A DNA stretch of 18,167 nucleotides from Escherichia coli (GCF_003334315.1 NZ_QOWR01000072.1), one strand, 5' to 3'; positions 78-17,651 are shown, numbered from the stretch's first letter. Made by a program: numbers and translations. The notes: generated by a model not told the origin, from the sequence alone.

Positions 78-203
78 TTCCGGAGCCTGTCATACGCGTA
101 AAACAGCCAGCGCTGGCGCGATTTAGCCCCGACATAGCCCCACTGTTCGTCCATTTCCGCGCAGACGATGACGTCACTGCCCGGCTGTATGCGCGAGGTT
201 ACC
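78..203 (-). mobile_element. IS1 remnant (internal insB fragment only)
   Basis: Minus-strand translation running down from ~203 reads [36 protein letters not shown], which I recognise as the internal part of IS1 InsB. Similarity decays below ~85 and stops at 203 where the IS3-family terminal repeat begins. No insA or IS1 terminal repeats are present in the window. Confidence 0.7.
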
Positions 204-241
204 TGCTCCCCGTTGATTAATACACCGTGATGTTAGTAATG
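199..241 (+). repeat. Left terminal inverted repeat of the IS3-family element
   Basis: TTACCTGCTCCCCGTTGATTAATACACCGTGATGTTAGTAATG pairs imperfectly with the reverse complement of 1378-1419. Confidence 0.6.
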
Positions 242-269
242 TCTTCATAAGCCACATGAGGACATCCCC

Positions 270-533
270 ATGAAGAAGCGTTTTTCCGACGAACAGATCA
301 TATGTATTCTCCGCGAGGCCGAAGCTGGCGTTTCTGCCCGTGAGCTCTGCCGTAAGCACGCCATTTCCGACGCCACCTTTTACACATGGCGTAAGAAGTA
401 TGGCGGTATGGAGGTGCCTGAGGTTAAGCGCCTGAAGTCGCTTGAGGAAGAGAACGCCAGACTCAAGAAGCTGCTTGCTGAAGCCATGCTGGATAAGGAG
501 GCGCTTCAGGTGGCTCTTGGGCGAAAGTACTGA
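270..533 (+). CDS. IS3-family transposase OrfA (HTH DNA-binding subunit)
   Basis: 87-aa ORF MKKRFSDEQIICILREAEAGVSARELCRKHAISDATFYTWRKKYGG... followed by a leucine-zipper-like heptad stretch (EVKRLKSLEEENARLKKLLAEAML). This is characteristic of IS3-family OrfA, IS407-group-like from memory. ATG start at 270. Confidence 0.9.
   Translation: MKKRFSDEQIICILREAEAGVSARELCRKHAISDATFYTWRKKYGGMEVPEVKRLKSLEEENARLKKLLAEAMLDKEALQVALGRKY
497..533 (+). other. orfA/orfB overlap window for the expected programmed -1 ribosomal frameshift
   Basis: The orfB frame opens after TAA at 494-496 and orfA stops at 531-533. The only Lys-codon slip candidate in the window is CGA AAG at 522-527 (A AAG). The exact slippery site cannot be assigned with confidence from sequence alone. 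Confidence 0.45.
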
Positions 534-556
534 CGACAGACCAGAAGCGGGAAGCC

Positions 557-1390
557 GTGGAAGTCATGTGCGAGGCTAAGGGTCTGTCGCAACGTCGTGC
601 CTGCAGGCTGGCAGGTCTGTCCCTGTCAACCTGCCGATATTCGGCTCAGCGTCCGGCTGCTGACGCGCAGCTGTCTCTACGCATCACAGAGCTGGCACTT
701 GAACGCCGCCGTTTTGGTTACCGGCGTATCTGGCAGCTTCTGCGACGTGAAGGTCTTTGCGTTAACCACAAGCGGGTTTACCGCATCTATCAACTTAATG
801 GCCTGAGTGTAAAACGCAGACGACGTCGTAAAGGGCTGGCAACAGAACGTCTGCCGCTGCTCCGCCCGATGGCGCCCAATCTGACCTGGTCAATGGATTT
901 CGTCATGGACGCACTGGCCACAGGTCGCAGGATCAAGTGCCTGACCTGCGTGGATGATTTCACAAAGGAATGCCTGACGGTCACTGTTGCCTTCGGGATT
1001 TCAGGCGTGCAGGTCACGCGTATTCTGGACAGCATTGCACTGTTTCGCGGCTATCCGGCTACGATAAGAACCGATCAGGGCCCGGAGTTTACCTGCCGCG
1101 CACTCGATCAGTGGGCTTTTGAGCATGGTGTGGAGCTGCGACTTATCCAGCCCGGCAAGCCAACGCAGAACGGATTTATTGAGAGTTTTAACTGACGCTT
1201 TCGTGATGAATGCCTGAATGAGCACTGGTTCAGCGATATTGTTCACGCCAGGAAGATCATTAATGACTGGCGACTGGATTATAACGAGTGTCGACCACAT
1301 TCATCACTGAATTACCTGACGCCGGCTGAATTTGCAGCGGGCTGGCGAAACGGGAAATATGAAGAAAAACCAACCGACATTACTAACTGA
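557..1390 (+). pseudogene. IS3-family transposase OrfB (DDE integrase domain) interrupted by an in-frame TGA at 1193-1195
   Basis: The ORF reads ...TDQGPEFTCRALDQWAFEHGVELRLIQPGKPTQNGFIESFN then TGA, and the same frame continues RFRDECLNEHWFSDIVHARKIINDWRLDYNECRPHSSLNYLTPAEF to the stop at 1388-1390. In IS3-family transposases the conserved block is ESFNG(R/K)(F/L)RDE, so the stop sits exactly where a Gly codon is expected (GGA to TGA, one substitution). GTG at 557 is the first in-frame start; the real protein is normally made as an OrfAB fusion. Confidence 0.8.
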
Positions 1391-15516: not shown

Positions 15517-15534
15517 TCGGGAGGCTCCCTGCTC

Positions 15535-16128
15535 TTAAATTTTTTTACCGTCTTCAGGCACAAGTTTGAAGGCGCGATAGTAGTTTTTAGATTCGATCAT
15601 GCCAAAAGGATGCAAATCCCTTCCGCTATATTCACCCGGATAGAAAAGCACTAATGGCGTGCTACCCATCACGTCTTGCAGAGCACTAAGTAACTCATGT
15701 CCTCGGACAAGAGGCCACGCACTGCCTAAGCCTGACAGCAACACAAACTCAAGTTCTGATGGCTTATATTTGTCCGCGATATACCTTGCCACTTTCTCTT
15801 GGCTCAGAGGCCCGGCTAGTGTTTTTCGAAGACCATCAACACCGACTTGCAATTCACGCTGGCAAGCTCGGTCGAAAAGGCCTCGCTCCTCAAGCATATC
15901 TATCAAGACTTCAAAAATATTGAGATGGACAAAGCGGTAACCACGCTTGTTGAGTTTTTCGTCAACGTGCTTAAGGTGCTCTCGTACAAGCAGTTCATAC
16001 TTGGCTGGATAGTCAAATACCCAAAATCCAATTTCATTGCCCAAGCCATCGTTTTTCAAAAACTTAGGGCTTTCAATTCGTTCCTGTATAAGATCAAGCC
16101 TGGTCTGGAGAGCCTTCATATTGTGCAC
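15535..16128 (-). CDS. brxB: BrxB (DUF1788-type) BREX protein
   Basis: 197 aa, second small protein of the operon. The start overlaps the brxA 3' end by 13 bp. Assignment rests on size and conserved gene order, not on a remembered motif. Confidence 0.8.
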   Translation of the reverse strand: MHNMKALQTRLDLIQERIESPKFLKNDGLGNEIGFWVFDYPAKYELLVREHLKHVDEKLNKRGYRFVHLNIFEVLIDMLEERGLFDRACQRELQVGVDGLRKTLAGPLSQEKVARYIADKYKPSELEFVLLSGLGSAWPLVRGHELLSALQDVMGSTPLVLFYPGEYSGRDLHPFGMIESKNYYRAFKLVPEDGKKI

Positions 16129-16715
16129 TCCATGACCTCAATCAAATCTTCCCGGCCCAGACGAACTAACCAGTCTTTAACTTCTGGCATTAGGTAAACA
16201 GGTTGTATTTTCTTTGTCCTGCTATCACTCAGGTAGCCACTATCAACCAATGCCTTAATTGCGTTGTTACCCATTTTTTTGACAGTTGAGTCAGAAAAAC
16301 CGCCAAGTTCGGCATATGCCCGCACTCTCGAGTCATAAAACTCAGACCATGCATCAGCGGTTAAAGCGGGTTTATAGGTGCGACGAGCCTCGGCTAAGGT
16401 ATGTCGCATAAAATCAGCGACAACCGGAGAATGAATGAGTAATGACATCATCAGCATTTGGACATAGGCACGTTCACTCGCGGCTAAAAGATCAGTCATA
16501 AACTCATCACCCAGGCCTTCAATACGCCAACGGATTGTTCTGGCATAACGAATAGCCGTCTGACCGGATTTTTTCTGAAGAACATTTTGCTCAACGATCA
16601 GCGACTTCCACTCATCTTCTGGAAGTTTTTTCAGTAGCGATTCTGCGATTATTCTAGATTCAGTTATCAATAAACTGCTTCCGATAAGATCGCCTAAATA
16701 TTCTTTTATATTCAT
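16116..16715 (-). CDS. brxA: BrxA (DUF1819-type) BREX protein
   Basis: 199 aa, first core gene, 9 bp downstream of the regulator gene. Assignment rests on size and gene order. Confidence 0.8.
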   Translation of the reverse strand: MNIKEYLGDLIGSSLLITESRIIAESLLKKLPEDEWKSLIVEQNVLQKKSGQTAIRYARTIRWRIEGLGDEFMTDLLAASERAYVQMLMMSLLIHSPVVADFMRHTLAEARRTYKPALTADAWSEFYDSRVRAYAELGGFSDSTVKKMGNNAIKALVDSGYLSDSRTKKIQPVYLMPEVKDWLVRLGREDLIEVMECTI

Positions 16716-16724
16716 AAATTCATC

Positions 16725-17651
16725 TCACGATTCGCTATATCCAGGAGCGAGTGCAGCATTGTCAACGCCGTATAGTGCTTCTGGATTTTTAAGTGCTAAA
16801 TGGAACTCTCGCCCATTGCTCTTGCTATTCTTTGAACAATCGATATTCCATAAACGCAGTAAATATCCAGCGAACGCAGCTCTTATCTCTACACGCAACC
16901 TATTGTTTTCCATTGCGTAGTCTATCAATACAGCTTCTGGATGTGCTAGTTTTGGATGAGGTATCAGCTCTAGTTCAACGATTCGGTTCCATTGCTTATC
17001 CCACTGAAGAGTCTCAACTTCGTCGTTAACCTCATCTTCTAACAACTCAACTTCACTTATTCTGGTTAACACAAAATCCCTAAATTCTCTATGCTTTCTA
17101 TCGAATGCTCGGACATGCCATCTCAAGCCATTGTCAATCAAGGTATGAGGAACTATTTGCCTGCTCCCATGACCACTCGACAATGAGGTGTACTCAATAT
17201 TAATCACCGCGCGTTTATGTATGGCTTCACTAATCGCCGCTACCACTTCCAATTTCGGCTTATTGAGATGAAATGGTGCTTCACAAGCCATAGGTGGCCT
17301 AACCTTGCCAAGAAAGCCATCACCGAACCCTTGGCTTATCGTCGCAAGCGTTCGAACAATGTCATAATCAAACAACGGCTGGAATGTGCTCGTCTTCAAG
17401 TGCACTCTGCGCTTTTCGTCATACATAACGTTGTTAGGAGCCAACGCTTTGTACCGCGCAAAATCTTGTGTTGCCACAGACGGCGCTACGCTAAAGCGCT
17501 CGGTTAAATAACTCCGCCCAGCTTCACCTTTAAATAACAAAGTGAAATCAATATGAGCGAGTCGTTCTCTCTGTGCTTGGCTAAGCTCTTCAAGTCCAGT
17601 GTTGTCTTGCACTGTCAACCTCTCAATCCATTTGGGACAAGCCCTAATCAT
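16725..17651 (-). CDS. brxR: WYL-domain transcriptional regulator (BrxR/CapW-like) with N-terminal winged HTH
   Basis: 308 aa. N-terminal HTH-like segment (RSYLTERFSVAPSVATQDFARYK) and a central WYL-like signature (RQIVPHTLIDNGLRWHVRAFDRKHREFRDFVLTRI; WHV in place of WYL). Immediately upstream of brxA on the same strand, as BrxR is in described BREX loci. Confidence 0.72.
   Translation of the reverse strand: MIRACPKWIERLTVQDNTGLEELSQAQRERLAHIDFTLLFKGEAGRSYLTERFSVAPSVATQDFARYKALAPNNVMYDEKRRVHLKTSTFQPLFDYDIVRTLATISQGFGDGFLGKVRPPMACEAPFHLNKPKLEVVAAISEAIHKRAVINIEYTSLSSGHGSRQIVPHTLIDNGLRWHVRAFDRKHREFRDFVLTRISEVELLEDEVNDEVETLQWDKQWNRIVELELIPHPKLAHPEAVLIDYAMENNRLRVEIRAAFAGYLLRLWNIDCSKNSKSNGREFHLALKNPEALYGVDNAALAPGYSES

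What the first reader, a model, noticed from the sequence alone, without database searches (positions are those of the whole stretch)
199..17651. Compositional contrast between the IS elements and the BREX operon
By eye the IS1 and IS3-family sequences are clearly more GC-rich (roughly mid-50s percent) than the BREX genes (roughly low-to-mid 40s, with AT-rich codon choices such as AAA, GAA and TTT). This fits horizontally acquired defence cargo with later IS traffic, for example on a plasmid or integrative element. I could not compute exact values.
Basis: inference. Interest (0 to 1): 0.3.

Follow-up and report, generated by a model that had tools for sequence, protein, structure and literature searches.

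The report
Imported BREX defence island, IS-flanked
The GC jump is real and ordinary: host-like insertion sequences (about 52-56% GC) flank a well-known, recently imported 16-kb BREX phage-defence module (44.8% GC) that travels on conjugative elements, islands and plasmids across Gammaproteobacteria.

Summary
Observation confirmed. The ISKpn34-like IS3-family element is 53.8% GC and the IS1 fragment 60.7%. The brxR-to-brxL block is 44.8% (genes 42.5-46.6%; GC3 0.44 against 0.58 for the IS and 0.57 for E. coli core genes).

The IS elements resemble the host (about 51%). BREX is the outlier, in GC, codon usage and dinucleotide signature.

The codon argument is only partly right. AAA and GAA are host-preferred codons and are used relatively less in BREX. 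The real signal is CTG (17% against 54% of Leu codons) plus more CTA, TTA, TTG, AGA, CGA, ATA, CAA and TCA.

Interpretation supported.
- The module is the pEFER / ICEVchBan9-type island (BrxR, BREX-1, BrxU): 99.4% identical to pEFER, with an identical PglX protein.
- Bases 78-18167 are 99.96-99.99% identical to segments in two E. coli chromosomal islands.
- Close relatives (94-97% nucleotide identity) occur in Marinomonas, Shewanella and an Oceanospirillaceae genome (loci about 44% GC). In Marinomonas the operon lies directly upstream of SXT/R391-type traI-traD.
- Both IS junctions lack target-site duplications, so they are rearrangement joints.

System and mobility are already published, so interest is low. 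One extra: the PglX specificity cassette (7029-8495) is a third, lower tier (37.5% GC, GC3 0.30). A GC3 deficit there was seen in all 28 PglX genes tested.

The parts
1..77 (.). Terminal fragment of an IS21-family element (IS100kyp, istB end), inserted into the IS1 remnant. It is absent at this position from the closest matching genomes.
   Evidence: bases 1-110 match junctions annotated as IS100kyp istB plus IS1; the best chromosomal matches begin at base 78.
78..203 (-). Internal fragment of IS1 (insB region). Bases 199-203 overlap the end of the next IS through microhomology. GC 60.7% over 78-199.
   Evidence: RefSeq: IS1-like element IS1B family transposase, partial; 90-98% identity to complete IS1 copies..
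199..1419 (+). ISKpn34-like IS3-family insertion sequence. orfA is 270-533, the -1 frameshift element 500-617, and orfB 557-1195. orfB is ended by an in-frame TGA at 1193-1195, and the reading frame continues to about 1387. The transposase gene is therefore a pseudogene. GC 53.8%.
   Evidence: the IS3 transposase profile is covered at positions 1-81, 93-321 and 323-368, so the stop falls at profile position 322. Rfam IS1222_FSE, 128 bits. RefSeq note 'programmed frameshift; internal stop'; imperfect terminal inverted repeats; 89% identity to an intact relative on plasmid NZ_CP024857.1.
1420..1636 (-). 5' remnant (first 72 codons) of a TrlF-family AAA-like ATPase gene, cut by the IS. The full-length gene (883 aa) follows brxL in Marinomonas aquimarina.
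   Evidence: TrlF_fam_ATP profile positions 3-55; homology to L070 starts exactly at base 1421, and the L070 protein scores 559 bits against a cut-off of 350.
1641..3716 (-). brxL (Lon-related BREX protein), GC 44.5%
   Evidence: TIGR02653, 1347 bits.
3733..6390 (-). pglZ (BREX-1 phosphatase type A), GC 46.6%
   Evidence: TIGR02687, 940 bits.
6390..10043 (-). pglX (BREX-1 adenine methyltransferase and specificity factor). The protein is identical to pEFER PglX (WP_001095615.1), which methylates GCTAAT.
   Evidence: protein identical, 6 nucleotide differences; NF033452, 1519 bits; PMC8565348: GCTAAT.
7029..8495 (-). PglX specificity cassette, aa 517-1005, running from just after NPPY (510-513) through the target recognition domain and spacer helices. 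It is swapped between otherwise 97-99% identical operons. GC 37.5%, GC3 0.30, the lowest of the window.
   Evidence: four alleles, 38-63% amino-acid identity in the cassette; NPPY position; about 6 sd below other BREX windows; domain map from PMC11341690.
10059..11822 (-). [quoted passage not shown] GC 46.3%.
   Evidence: PADLOC HEC-05, 774 bits; Pfam GmrSD_N; PMC8565348, BrxU function.
11839..15516 (-). brxC (BREX P-loop ATPase), GC 45.3%
   Evidence: NF033441, 1222 bits.
15535..16119 (-). brxB (DUF1788). This exact protein is annotated 'MULTISPECIES [Gammaproteobacteria]'.
   Evidence: BrxB, 235 bits.
16116..16715 (-). brxA (DUF1819)
   Evidence: BrxA, 360 bits; PF08849.
16725..17651 (-). 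brxR (WYL-domain regulator)
   Evidence: WYL; WHD_BrxR, WYL, BrxR_CTD; PMC9122601 listed.
17652..18090 (.). AT-rich (39.5% GC) region upstream of brxR. Homology to pEFER and to the SXT/R391-type contexts ends at 17862. From 17863 it follows the AlpA/Zn-ribbon island context seen in Proteus-type chromosomes. Bases 17917-18075 (-) are the 52-codon 3' remnant of a 141-aa Zn-ribbon gene.
18091..18167 (+). Left end of IS3 (inverted repeat TGATCTTACC..., and the start of orfA).
   Evidence: RefSeq: IS3-like element IS3 family transposase.

Best explanation
The compositional step marks the border between two kinds of DNA.

On one side are insertion sequences that are long-term residents of enterobacteria, with GC and codon usage like the E. 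coli host. On the other is a recently imported, not yet ameliorated 16-kb defence module: brxR-brxA-brxB-brxC-brxU-pglX-pglZ-brxL. It belongs to the pEFER / ICEVchBan9 lineage.

That lineage circulates at 94-99% nucleotide identity across Vibrio, Shewanella, Marinomonas, Proteus, Providencia, Morganella, Aeromonas and Enterobacteriaceae. Its carriers are the variable region just upstream of traI in SXT/R391-type conjugative elements, AlpA-type genomic islands, and plasmids. Its roughly 44-45% GC fits that marine and Morganellaceae gene pool, not E. coli.

IS-mediated rearrangements cut the module from its earlier surroundings. The ISKpn34-like element truncates trlF, and IS3 truncates a Zn-ribbon gene. 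These events left it as an IS-bracketed segment in E. coli islands. Later IS hits followed: an in-frame stop decayed the ISKpn34-like transposase, and IS100kyp inserted into the IS1 remnant.

Function is taken from published work on the identical or near-identical proteins.
- PglX methylates GCTAAT, and BREX blocks replication of unmethylated phage DNA.
- BrxU cleaves DNA with modified cytosines.
- BrxR is the WYL-domain regulator.

Shown here: composition, identities, gene content, contexts and junction anatomy. Inferred: direction of transfer, order of the IS events, and activity in this strain.
For: - Composition and statistics.
- Host baseline.
- All eight genes identified.
- Identity to pEFER and to at least 55 plasmids.
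- E. coli chromosomal islands with tRNA-Phe and integrase.
- Closest relatives among GTDB species genomes are marine Gammaproteobacteria, with loci at about 44% GC. Enterobacterial chromosomal BREX-1 shares only 50-55% PglZ identity.
- Marinomonas context (full-length TrlF, MobH relaxase, SXT_TraD 759 bits, TraL/E/K).
- int/mobI/rumAB-type contexts in other genomes, and BREX GC constant at 44.3-44.7% while the flanks range from 37% to 50%.
- Taxa holding proteins at least 90% identical.
- pEFER's upstream region continues into the ICE-type context.
- pglZ GC tracks host flank GC elsewhere (r = 0.83, n = 22).
- Literature: PMC8565348, the LeGault preprint 10.1101/2020.12.16.423150, and PMC11580459, which gives the same BrxC accession for ICEVchBan9 and pEFER.
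- No target-site duplications at either IS junction.
Against: - The source genome of the window is not known. The host baseline is 98 kb from the best-matching E. coli genome, not a whole-genome average.
- The direction of transfer cannot be proved from composition. Marine relatives at 96-97% identity could themselves be recent recipients.
- The ICE backbone next to BREX is somewhat GC-richer (47-48.5%) than BREX, so even there the module may be cargo from elsewhere.
- The entropy change point (1173) is about 250 bp inside the IS, so composition alone does not place the junction exactly.
- The window itself holds no integrase, att site or conjugation gene.
Confidence: 0.9

Rival explanations
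1. BREX genes are AT-rich by nature in every host, for example because of selection for H-NS silencing or because of protein function. On this view the contrast says nothing about origin.
For: - Several loci found have BREX regions at modest GC.
- The PglX cassette is AT-rich in every host examined.
- In K. oxytoca and Pseudomonas ceruminis, pglZ differs from its far flank by 5-7 points.
Against: - pglZ ranges from 42% to 57% GC across 22 hosts and tracks the flank (r = 0.83; mean difference +1 point).
- The N- and C-terminal parts of pglX reach GC3 0.60-0.82 in Klebsiella, Cedecea and Pseudomonas.
- The same module keeps 44.3-44.7% GC whether its flanks are 37% or 50%. That is what recent transfer predicts, not adaptation to each host.
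Confidence: 0.04
2. The contrast is only an amino-acid composition effect: Lys-, Glu- and Phe-rich defence proteins against Arg- and Ala-rich transposases.
For: - GC2 differs (0.31-0.39 in BREX against 0.49 in orfB).
- The high AAA and GAA counts do come from Lys and Glu content.
Against: - GC3 also differs strongly (0.44 against 0.58 for the IS and 0.57 for the host).
- Synonymous choice differs: CTG 17% against 54%, CCG 27% against 51%, CAA 54% against 32%.
- The dinucleotide signature differs too.
Confidence: 0.02
3. The IS elements are the foreign, unusually GC-rich component, and the BREX block is native to a host of about 45% GC.
For: - The source genome is not given.
- The module occurs in genomes whose flanking DNA is 37-44% GC (Proteus-type, Marinomonas).
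Against: - Every full-length match that includes the same IS junctions is an E. coli chromosome.
- IS1, IS3, ISKpn34-like and IS100kyp are typical enterobacterial elements. Window sequence, mostly these IS copies, matches 5,353 of 5,426 complete E. coli genomes.
- The surrounding islands sit between core E. coli genes.
Confidence: 0.03

Closest known systems
pEFER phage-defence island of Escherichia fergusonii ATCC 35469 (Picton et al. 2021, PMC8565348; BrxR: PMC9122601)
   Same: - Same gene set and order: brxR, brxA, brxB, brxC, brxU, pglX, pglZ, brxL.
- 99.4% nucleotide identity over window 1567-17862.
- Identical PglX protein (WP_001095615.1), so GCTAAT specificity is expected.
   Different: - The closest matches to the window are chromosomal, and its flanks differ.
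- The window keeps 147 bp more of the downstream trlF remnant (cut at 1420, against 1567 in the plasmids). It therefore cannot descend from the pEFER-type truncation.
- Upstream of 17862 it follows an AlpA/Zn-ribbon island context, whereas pEFER continues into the SXT/R391-type context.
- pEFER's 'brxS/brxT' region is absent.
Hotspot-5 BREX of the SXT/R391 conjugative element ICEVchBan9 (LeGault et al., preprint 10.1101/2020.12.16.423150; PMC11580459)
   Same: - Same architecture, with BrxR and BrxU.
- PMC11580459 lists one BrxC accession (WP_000687848) for both ICEVchBan9 and pEFER.
- Proteins at least 90% identical to those of the window occur in Vibrio cholerae and other Vibrio species.
- A 96.6-97.4% identical copy lies just upstream of traI-traD in a Marinomonas element.
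   Different: - The window contains no ICE backbone gene.
- I did not hold the ICEVchBan9 sequence, so its identity to the window was not measured directly.
Chromosomal type 1 BREX of Enterobacteriaceae, e.g. Klebsiella oxytoca NBRC 105695 (L028). The studied E. coli HS and Salmonella StySA systems are the same type.
   Same: The six core BREX-1 genes, and the same PglX layout with a variable specificity region (PMC9009780).
   Different: - Only 50-51% PglZ identity.
- GC about 50% in pglZ, and GC3 0.60-0.66 in the conserved parts of pglX. These systems resemble their hosts in composition; the window's module does not.
Target-recognition-domain cassettes of Type I R-M specificity subunits (HsdS) and MmeI-family enzymes
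   Same: - A recognition module flanked by conserved sequence is replaced wholesale between near-identical operons.
- The PglX C-terminal domain structurally resembles Type I specificity subunits (PMC11341690).
   Different: - Here the cassette lies inside the methyltransferase gene itself.
- That hsdS recognition domains are also AT-rich is my recollection and was not tested here.

Membership tests
Type 1 BREX system | [quoted passage not shown] | tested here: met
   BrxL 1347 bits, PglZ type A 940 bits, PglX BREX-1 1519 bits and BrxC 1222 bits are all far above the NCBIfam cut-offs. BrxA (360 bits) and BrxB (235 bits) match PADLOC models. All lie on the minus strand, 1641-16715.
Type 1 BREX system | PglX carries the gamma-class N6-adenine methyltransferase motifs (GxG, NPPY) | tested here: met
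   GSG at residue 314 and NPPY at residue 510.
Type 1 BREX system | Methylation of a 6-bp non-palindromic motif, and phage exclusion | not testable with these tools
   Shown for the identical PglX protein on pEFER (GCTAAT; PMC8565348). Not shown for the source strain.
pEFER-type defence island (BrxR + BREX-1 + BrxU) | A WYL-domain brxR upstream, and a DUF262/GmrSD brxU between brxC and pglX | tested here: met
   (WHD_BrxR/WYL/BrxR_CTD; GmrSD_N; HEC-05 774 bits); 99.4% nucleotide identity to pEFER.
SXT/R391 ICE hotspot-5 cargo | Located between the ICE left-arm genes and traI of an SXT/R391-type element (MobH relaxase, SXT-type TraD) | tested here: not met
   The window has no ICE gene. Its flanks are IS elements, and in matching genomes AlpA-type island genes. 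The feature is met only by relatives: Marinomonas L070 and loci L062, L064, L065 and L069. The window is therefore an ex-ICE-lineage module, not ICE cargo in place. That this position is 'hotspot 5' rests on Wozniak 2009 as cited in the LeGault preprint.
IS3 family (ISKpn34-like element at 199-1419) | orfA and orfB joined by a programmed -1 frameshift, an IS3-type DDE transposase, and terminal inverted repeats | tested here: met
   NF033516 covered in three pieces; IS1222_FSE, 128 bits; imperfect inverted repeats. The transposase is interrupted by an in-frame TGA, so the copy is presumably unable to move by itself.
IS3 family (ISKpn34-like element at 199-1419) | A short target-site duplication flanking a simple insertion | tested here: not met
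   the flanks are GGT(T) and CAT, and they belong to unrelated sequences (IS1 against trlF). This is a rearrangement joint, not a simple insertion.
Composite transposon | Two copies of the same IS bracketing the cargo | tested here: not met
   The left element is ISKpn34-like and the right one is IS3. Both are IS3-family, but they are different elements.

The most novel reading that the evidence does not exclude
The PglX specificity cassette may be a separately evolving, AT-rich unit.

What was seen: in all 28 BREX-1 pglX genes examined, from hosts whose loci range from 39% to 58% GC, the stretch from just after NPPY through the recognition domain and spacer helices has lower GC3 than the rest of the same gene predicts. 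The mean deficit is 0.18, and it reaches 0.37 in Klebsiella, Cedecea and Pseudomonas. Cassettes are only 30-63% identical between operons that are otherwise 97-99% identical.

The most novel reading: BREX specificity modules form a shared, compositionally distinct pool. They would be exchanged by recombination at the conserved flanks faster than they ameliorate, as is said of Type I HsdS recognition domains. The GC trough would then be a general, usable marker of the specificity determinant.

I did not find this stated in the BREX papers I read.
Probability: 0.3. Interest if true: 0.45.

Novelty: already known. Interest (0 to 1): 0.15.

Why it matters
For the finding as given, very little. A low-GC defence island flanked by host-like IS elements is textbook horizontal transfer. 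This particular module (pEFER / ICEVchBan9 BREX plus BrxU) and its spread inside and outside SXT ICEs are already published.

Practical value.
1. The window can be annotated confidently as a complete, probably functional GCTAAT-specific BREX-1 + BrxU + BrxR island.
2. The chromosomal E. coli copies are not derived from the pEFER-type plasmid copy, because they keep more of trlF and have a different upstream context. This documents at least two independent captures from the older context.
3. The three-tier composition (IS, then BREX backbone, then PglX cassette) points to the specificity cassette as a unit with its own history. A systematic survey of that could be worthwhile.

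Tried and rejected
1. Recursive entropy segmentation found only the IS/BREX step. It did not detect the pglX trough, because a central dip is invisible to single splits. I replaced it with a fixed-length window scan, using cassette borders defined independently from allele alignments.
2. I looked for the window's PglX cassette on a different backbone, which would be direct proof of cassette transfer.
   - Among 31 other PglX genes compared (three further alleles and 27 genes from the scan), no pair had a cassette identity at least 0.10 above its N-terminal identity.
   - A search of 5.8 billion proteins with the cassette found nothing between 58% and 100% identity. The list was dominated by partial proteins and did not show the full-length pEFER protein. 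This was inconclusive.
The repeat succeeded.
4. tRNA and Rfam scans of the window found no tRNA or att-type landmark, only the IS frameshift element.
5. Testing IS3 as a simple insertion into the Zn-ribbon gene gave a negative result. There is no duplication (TCG against GTT), and the gene beyond IS3 is unrelated.
6. A composite-transposon reading was rejected because the two bracketing IS elements differ.
7. I considered that the brxU-less versions in Proteus- and Providencia-type genomes are ancestral. This was rejected: they keep the first 83 and about the last 42 nucleotides of brxU, so they are deletion derivatives.
8. Species names for loci L060-L069 could not be read directly. Only L066 could be tied to Proteus terrae, through contig length.

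Full report
**What is in the window**

From left to right:
- 1-77: the end of an IS21-family element, IS100kyp.
- 78-203 (minus strand): an internal IS1 fragment.
- 199-1419: an ISKpn34-like IS3-family element.
  - orfA is 270-533. An IS1222-type frameshift element lies at 500-617 (128 bits).
  - orfB is 557-1195 and is ended by an in-frame TGA. The IS3 transposase profile continues after the stop.
- 1420-1636 (minus strand): the first 72 codons of a TrlF-family ATPase gene.
- One minus-strand operon: brxL 1641-3716, pglZ 3733-6390, pglX 6390-10043, brxU (DUF262/GmrSD) 10059-11822, brxC 11839-15516, brxB 15535-16119, brxA 16116-16715, brxR (WYL) 16725-17651.
- 17652-18090: a 439-bp AT-rich upstream region.
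- From 18091: the left end of IS3.

No tRNA was found, and no other Rfam family matched.

**Checking the observation**

| Feature | GC |
|---|---|
| IS1 fragment, 122 bp | 60.7% |
| Complete IS1 in a related genome | 52.1% |
| ISKpn34-like element | 53.8% |
| Complete IS3 in a related genome | 53.7% |
| BREX block 1641-17651 | 44.8% |
| Individual BREX genes | 42.5-46.6% |

GC3 is 0.58-0.64 in the IS reading frames and 0.40-0.49 in the BREX genes.

The contrast is not chance.
- No 1219-bp window within BREX exceeds 48.6% GC.
- An unsupervised entropy split gives one highly significant change point (38.5 bits, against at most 13.2 in 500 shuffles).
- That change point falls after base 1173, about 250 bp inside the IS. 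The last 246 bp of the IS are only 45.1% GC.

**Which side is the outlier**

I sampled 98 kb of core chromosome from E. coli PSS-11, the genome with the best match.
- It is 50-52% GC, and 54 long ORFs have GC3 0.57.
- 16-kb host windows average 50.6%, with a minimum of 46.5%.
- The IS elements therefore look like the host, and BREX is the deviant part.
- The dinucleotide signature agrees. BREX against host scores 70.6, while host 16-kb windows score 27.2 +/- 10.8 (maximum 45.6). The IS lies within host noise.

- AAA and GAA are the host's own preferred codons. Their synonymous share is lower in BREX than in the host (63% against 81%; 59% against 72%).
- Their high counts reflect Lys- and Glu-rich proteins.
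- TTT is truly enriched (63% against 47%).
- The strongest signals are CTG (17% against 54% of Leu codons), CCG (27% against 51%), and raised CTA, TTA, TTG, AGA, CGA, ATA, CAA and TCA.

**What the module is**

Bases 1567-17862 are 99.4% identical to plasmid pEFER of E. fergusonii, and the PglX protein is identical. Published work on that plasmid shows the following.
- PglX-dependent N6-methylation of GCTAAT, and BREX defence (PMC8565348).
- Type IV restriction of DNA with modified cytosines by BrxU (PMC8565348).
- A paper on WYL-domain regulators that covers pEFER's BrxR (PMC9122601) was listed but not read.

At least 55 plasmids from Escherichia, Klebsiella, Salmonella and other genera carry at least 80% of the window. 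So do 44 of 5,426 complete E. coli genomes.

**Context in E. coli chromosomes**

Bases 78-18167, including the IS1 / ISKpn34-like / trlF junctions and the IS3 junction, are 99.99% and 99.96% identical to segments of two E. coli chromosomes from Ecuador.
- In strain LR-28 the segment lies in an island between tRNA-Phe plus a tyrosine integrase and cadC.
- In strain PSS-11 it lies in a different island next to yghD-gspL. The tRNA-Phe/cadC site of PSS-11 holds only an integrase remnant.
- Two further chromosomes, NMBU_W05E18 and ESBL 15, have the same IS frame.

**Where the 45% GC comes from**

A scan of one genome per GTDB species with PglZ shows that the closest relatives are not enterobacterial chromosomal BREX systems. 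Klebsiella oxytoca, Enterobacter pulveris, Cedecea and Photorhabdus share only 50-55% amino-acid identity. The closest relatives are marine Gammaproteobacteria, with loci at about 44% GC:

| Genome | Nucleotide identity to the window |
|---|---|
| Marinomonas aquimarina | 96.6-97.4% over brxL-pglZ and brxC |
| Shewanella sp. MBTL60-007 | 97.0%, including brxU |
| Oceanospirillaceae MAG | about 94% |

In M. aquimarina, brxL is followed by the following genes:
- A full-length TrlF gene (883 aa, 559 bits against a cut-off of 350).
- A MobH-family relaxase.
- An SXT-type TraD (759 bits against a cut-off of 366).
- TraL, TraE and TraK.

This is an SXT/R391-type conjugative element, with BREX just upstream of traI. 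Homology to the window begins exactly at base 1421, the IS boundary.

The exact BrxB protein is listed in 966 blocks of the public assembly collection. Its contexts there are of two kinds:
- integrase / MobI / rumAB-like / exonuclease, then brxR, which is the left arm of an SXT/R391 element;
- AlpA / Zn-ribbon / DUF932 / antirestriction islands.

Proteins at least 90% identical to those of the window are named from these genera:
- Enterobacteriaceae: E. coli, Klebsiella, Enterobacter.
- Morganellaceae: Proteus, Providencia, Morganella.
- Vibrio: four species for BrxR, BrxU, BrxB and PglZ, and V. parahaemolyticus also for PglX.
- Others: Aeromonas, Shewanella, Acinetobacter lwoffii and Oceanospirillaceae.

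The BREX part stays at 44.3-44.7% GC whether its flanks are 37% or 50%.

The literature already covers this. All SXT ICEs examined carry defence genes with a WYL regulator in hotspot 5. ICEVchBan9's BREX genes occur in SXT ICEs and also on chromosomes, plasmids and non-SXT ICEs (preprint 10.1101/2020.12.16.423150). ICEVchBan9's system includes BrxR and BrxU, and its BrxC is cited under the same accession as pEFER's (PMC11580459).

**Is BREX simply AT-rich everywhere?**

No.
- Across 22 other hosts, pglZ runs from 42% to 57% GC and tracks the distal flank (r = 0.83).
- The conserved parts of pglX reach GC3 0.60-0.82 in Klebsiella, Cedecea and Pseudomonas.

The low GC here is therefore a lineage signature of recent import.

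**IS anatomy and order of events**

Neither bracketing IS is a simple insertion.
- The ISKpn34-like element has IS1 sequence on one side and trlF on the other, with no duplication (GGT/GTT against CAT).
- IS3 has the 3' remnant of a 141-aa Zn-ribbon gene on one side. On the other side, in PSS-11, is an unrelated gene. The flanking triplets differ (TCG against GTT).
- Both are rearrangement joints. The two elements differ, so this is not a classical composite transposon.

Plasmid copies keep only 74 bp beyond brxL (cut at 1567), whereas the window keeps 220 bp (cut at 1420). Upstream of 17862, pEFER continues for 165 bp into the SXT/R391-type context. The chromosomal version therefore does not descend from the pEFER-type plasmid version.

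The in-frame stop in the transposase is shared by all four chromosomes, so it predates their divergence. The IS100kyp end at 1-77 is absent from them and is the latest event. This ordering is inference.

**A third compositional tier**

The deepest GC trough is inside pglX, at 7029-8495. It is 37.5% GC with GC3 0.30. Other BREX windows of the same length average 45.5 +/- 1.3%, with a minimum of 42.8%.

Its borders were defined independently of GC.
- Four pglX alleles sit in operons that are otherwise 97-99% identical. They diverge to 38-63% amino-acid identity exactly over residues 517-1005.
- One of them, in NMBU_W05E18, sits in the same IS frame as the window.
- The region starts just after NPPY (510-513).
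- By comparison with the Salmonella PglX structure, it covers the end of the methyltransferase domain, the target recognition domain and the spacer helices (PMC11341690).

The pattern extends well beyond this lineage.
- In 29 of 29 PglX genes from the genome scan, the cassette GC3 is below both flanks.
- I then predicted GC3 from the cassette's amino acids and the codon usage of the flanking parts of the same gene. The deficit persists in 28 of 28 genes, with a mean of -0.18. It reaches -0.27 to -0.37 in Klebsiella, Enterobacter, Cedecea and most Pseudomonas genes.

Wholesale replacement is certain, because 38-40% identity cannot arise in place within operons that are 97-99% identical. Whether the cassettes come from a shared AT-rich pool is not shown. 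I found no near-identical cassette on a divergent backbone. The BREX papers I read mention variable recognition domains but not their composition.

**Verdict**

The explanation is ordinary and the system is already described. The interest score is low. The PglX cassette pattern is the only lead that might repay a systematic study.

Noticed in passing
window 7029-8495 (pglX residues 517-1005): The specificity cassette is swapped between operons that are 97-99% identical, with four alleles at 38-63% amino-acid identity. It is the lowest-GC stretch of the window (37.5%; GC3 0.30). A GC3 deficit relative to the rest of the gene was present in all 28 pglX genes tested, from hosts of widely different GC, even after controlling for amino-acid content.
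   Followed up: partly
window 10101-11739; L060 14281-14437: The copies of this module found through the exact BrxB protein (L060-L066, L068, L069; Proteus terrae and probably other Morganellaceae) lack brxU. They keep its first 83 and about its last 42 nucleotides. They are therefore internal-deletion derivatives, not ancestral brxU-free forms.
   Followed up: yes
L070 1799-3713; L010 2593-4568 and 8303-10011: The brxC-pglX gap that holds brxU in the window carries other embedded genes in close relatives. Marinomonas aquimarina has an AAA_15/AAA_21-type ATPase (389 aa) plus a 245-aa protein. An Oceanospirillaceae MAG has a 406-aa plus 252-aa pair there, and a further 371-aa plus 199-aa pair between pglX and pglZ.
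   Followed up: partly
window 1420-1636 (minus strand): This is the remnant of a TrlF-family AAA-like ATPase gene, a probable further defence gene that follows brxL in Marinomonas. It is cut at codon 72 here but at about codon 23 (base 1567) in pEFER-type plasmids, which indicates independent truncations.
   Followed up: yes
window 1193-1195: A single in-frame TGA interrupts an otherwise full-length IS3-family transposase. It falls at position 322 of a 369-position profile. All four matching E. coli chromosomes share it, so this IS copy has probably been immobile since before they diverged.
   Followed up: partly
window 1-77: The end of an IS100kyp (IS21-family) element is inserted in the IS1 remnant. 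The closest matching chromosomes lack it at this position, so the window comes from a further, slightly rearranged genome.
   Followed up: partly
window 199-203, 1419/1420 and 18090/18091; L001 34271/34272: Neither the ISKpn34-like element nor IS3 is flanked by a target-site duplication. The sequences on their two sides are unrelated, so both are rearrangement joints.
   Followed up: yes
window 17862: There is a sharp context switch 211 bp upstream of brxR. pEFER, other plasmids and the SXT/R391-type loci share sequence with the window only up to 17862. Beyond that point the window follows the AlpA/Zn-ribbon island context of L060 and L066, and pEFER follows the ICE context.
   Followed up: yes
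L001 14684-35203 against L002 14683-35195: The same 20.5-kb IS-bracketed segment (99.4% identical overall; window part 99.96-99.99%) sits in two different chromosomal islands in two E. coli isolates from Ecuador. One is at tRNA-Phe/cadC and the other next to yghD-gspL. This suggests transfer between related islands.
   Followed up: partly
L006 (E. coli NMBU_W05E18) against window 78-7124 and 8500-18167: The IS frame is the same, but the pglX cassette differs. Identity is also uneven on the two sides: 97.9% on the brxL-pglZ side and 99.3% on the brxC-brxR side. This points to recombination within the operon after the IS junctions formed. The same island carries ISEcp1-blaCTX-M-15.
   Followed up: no
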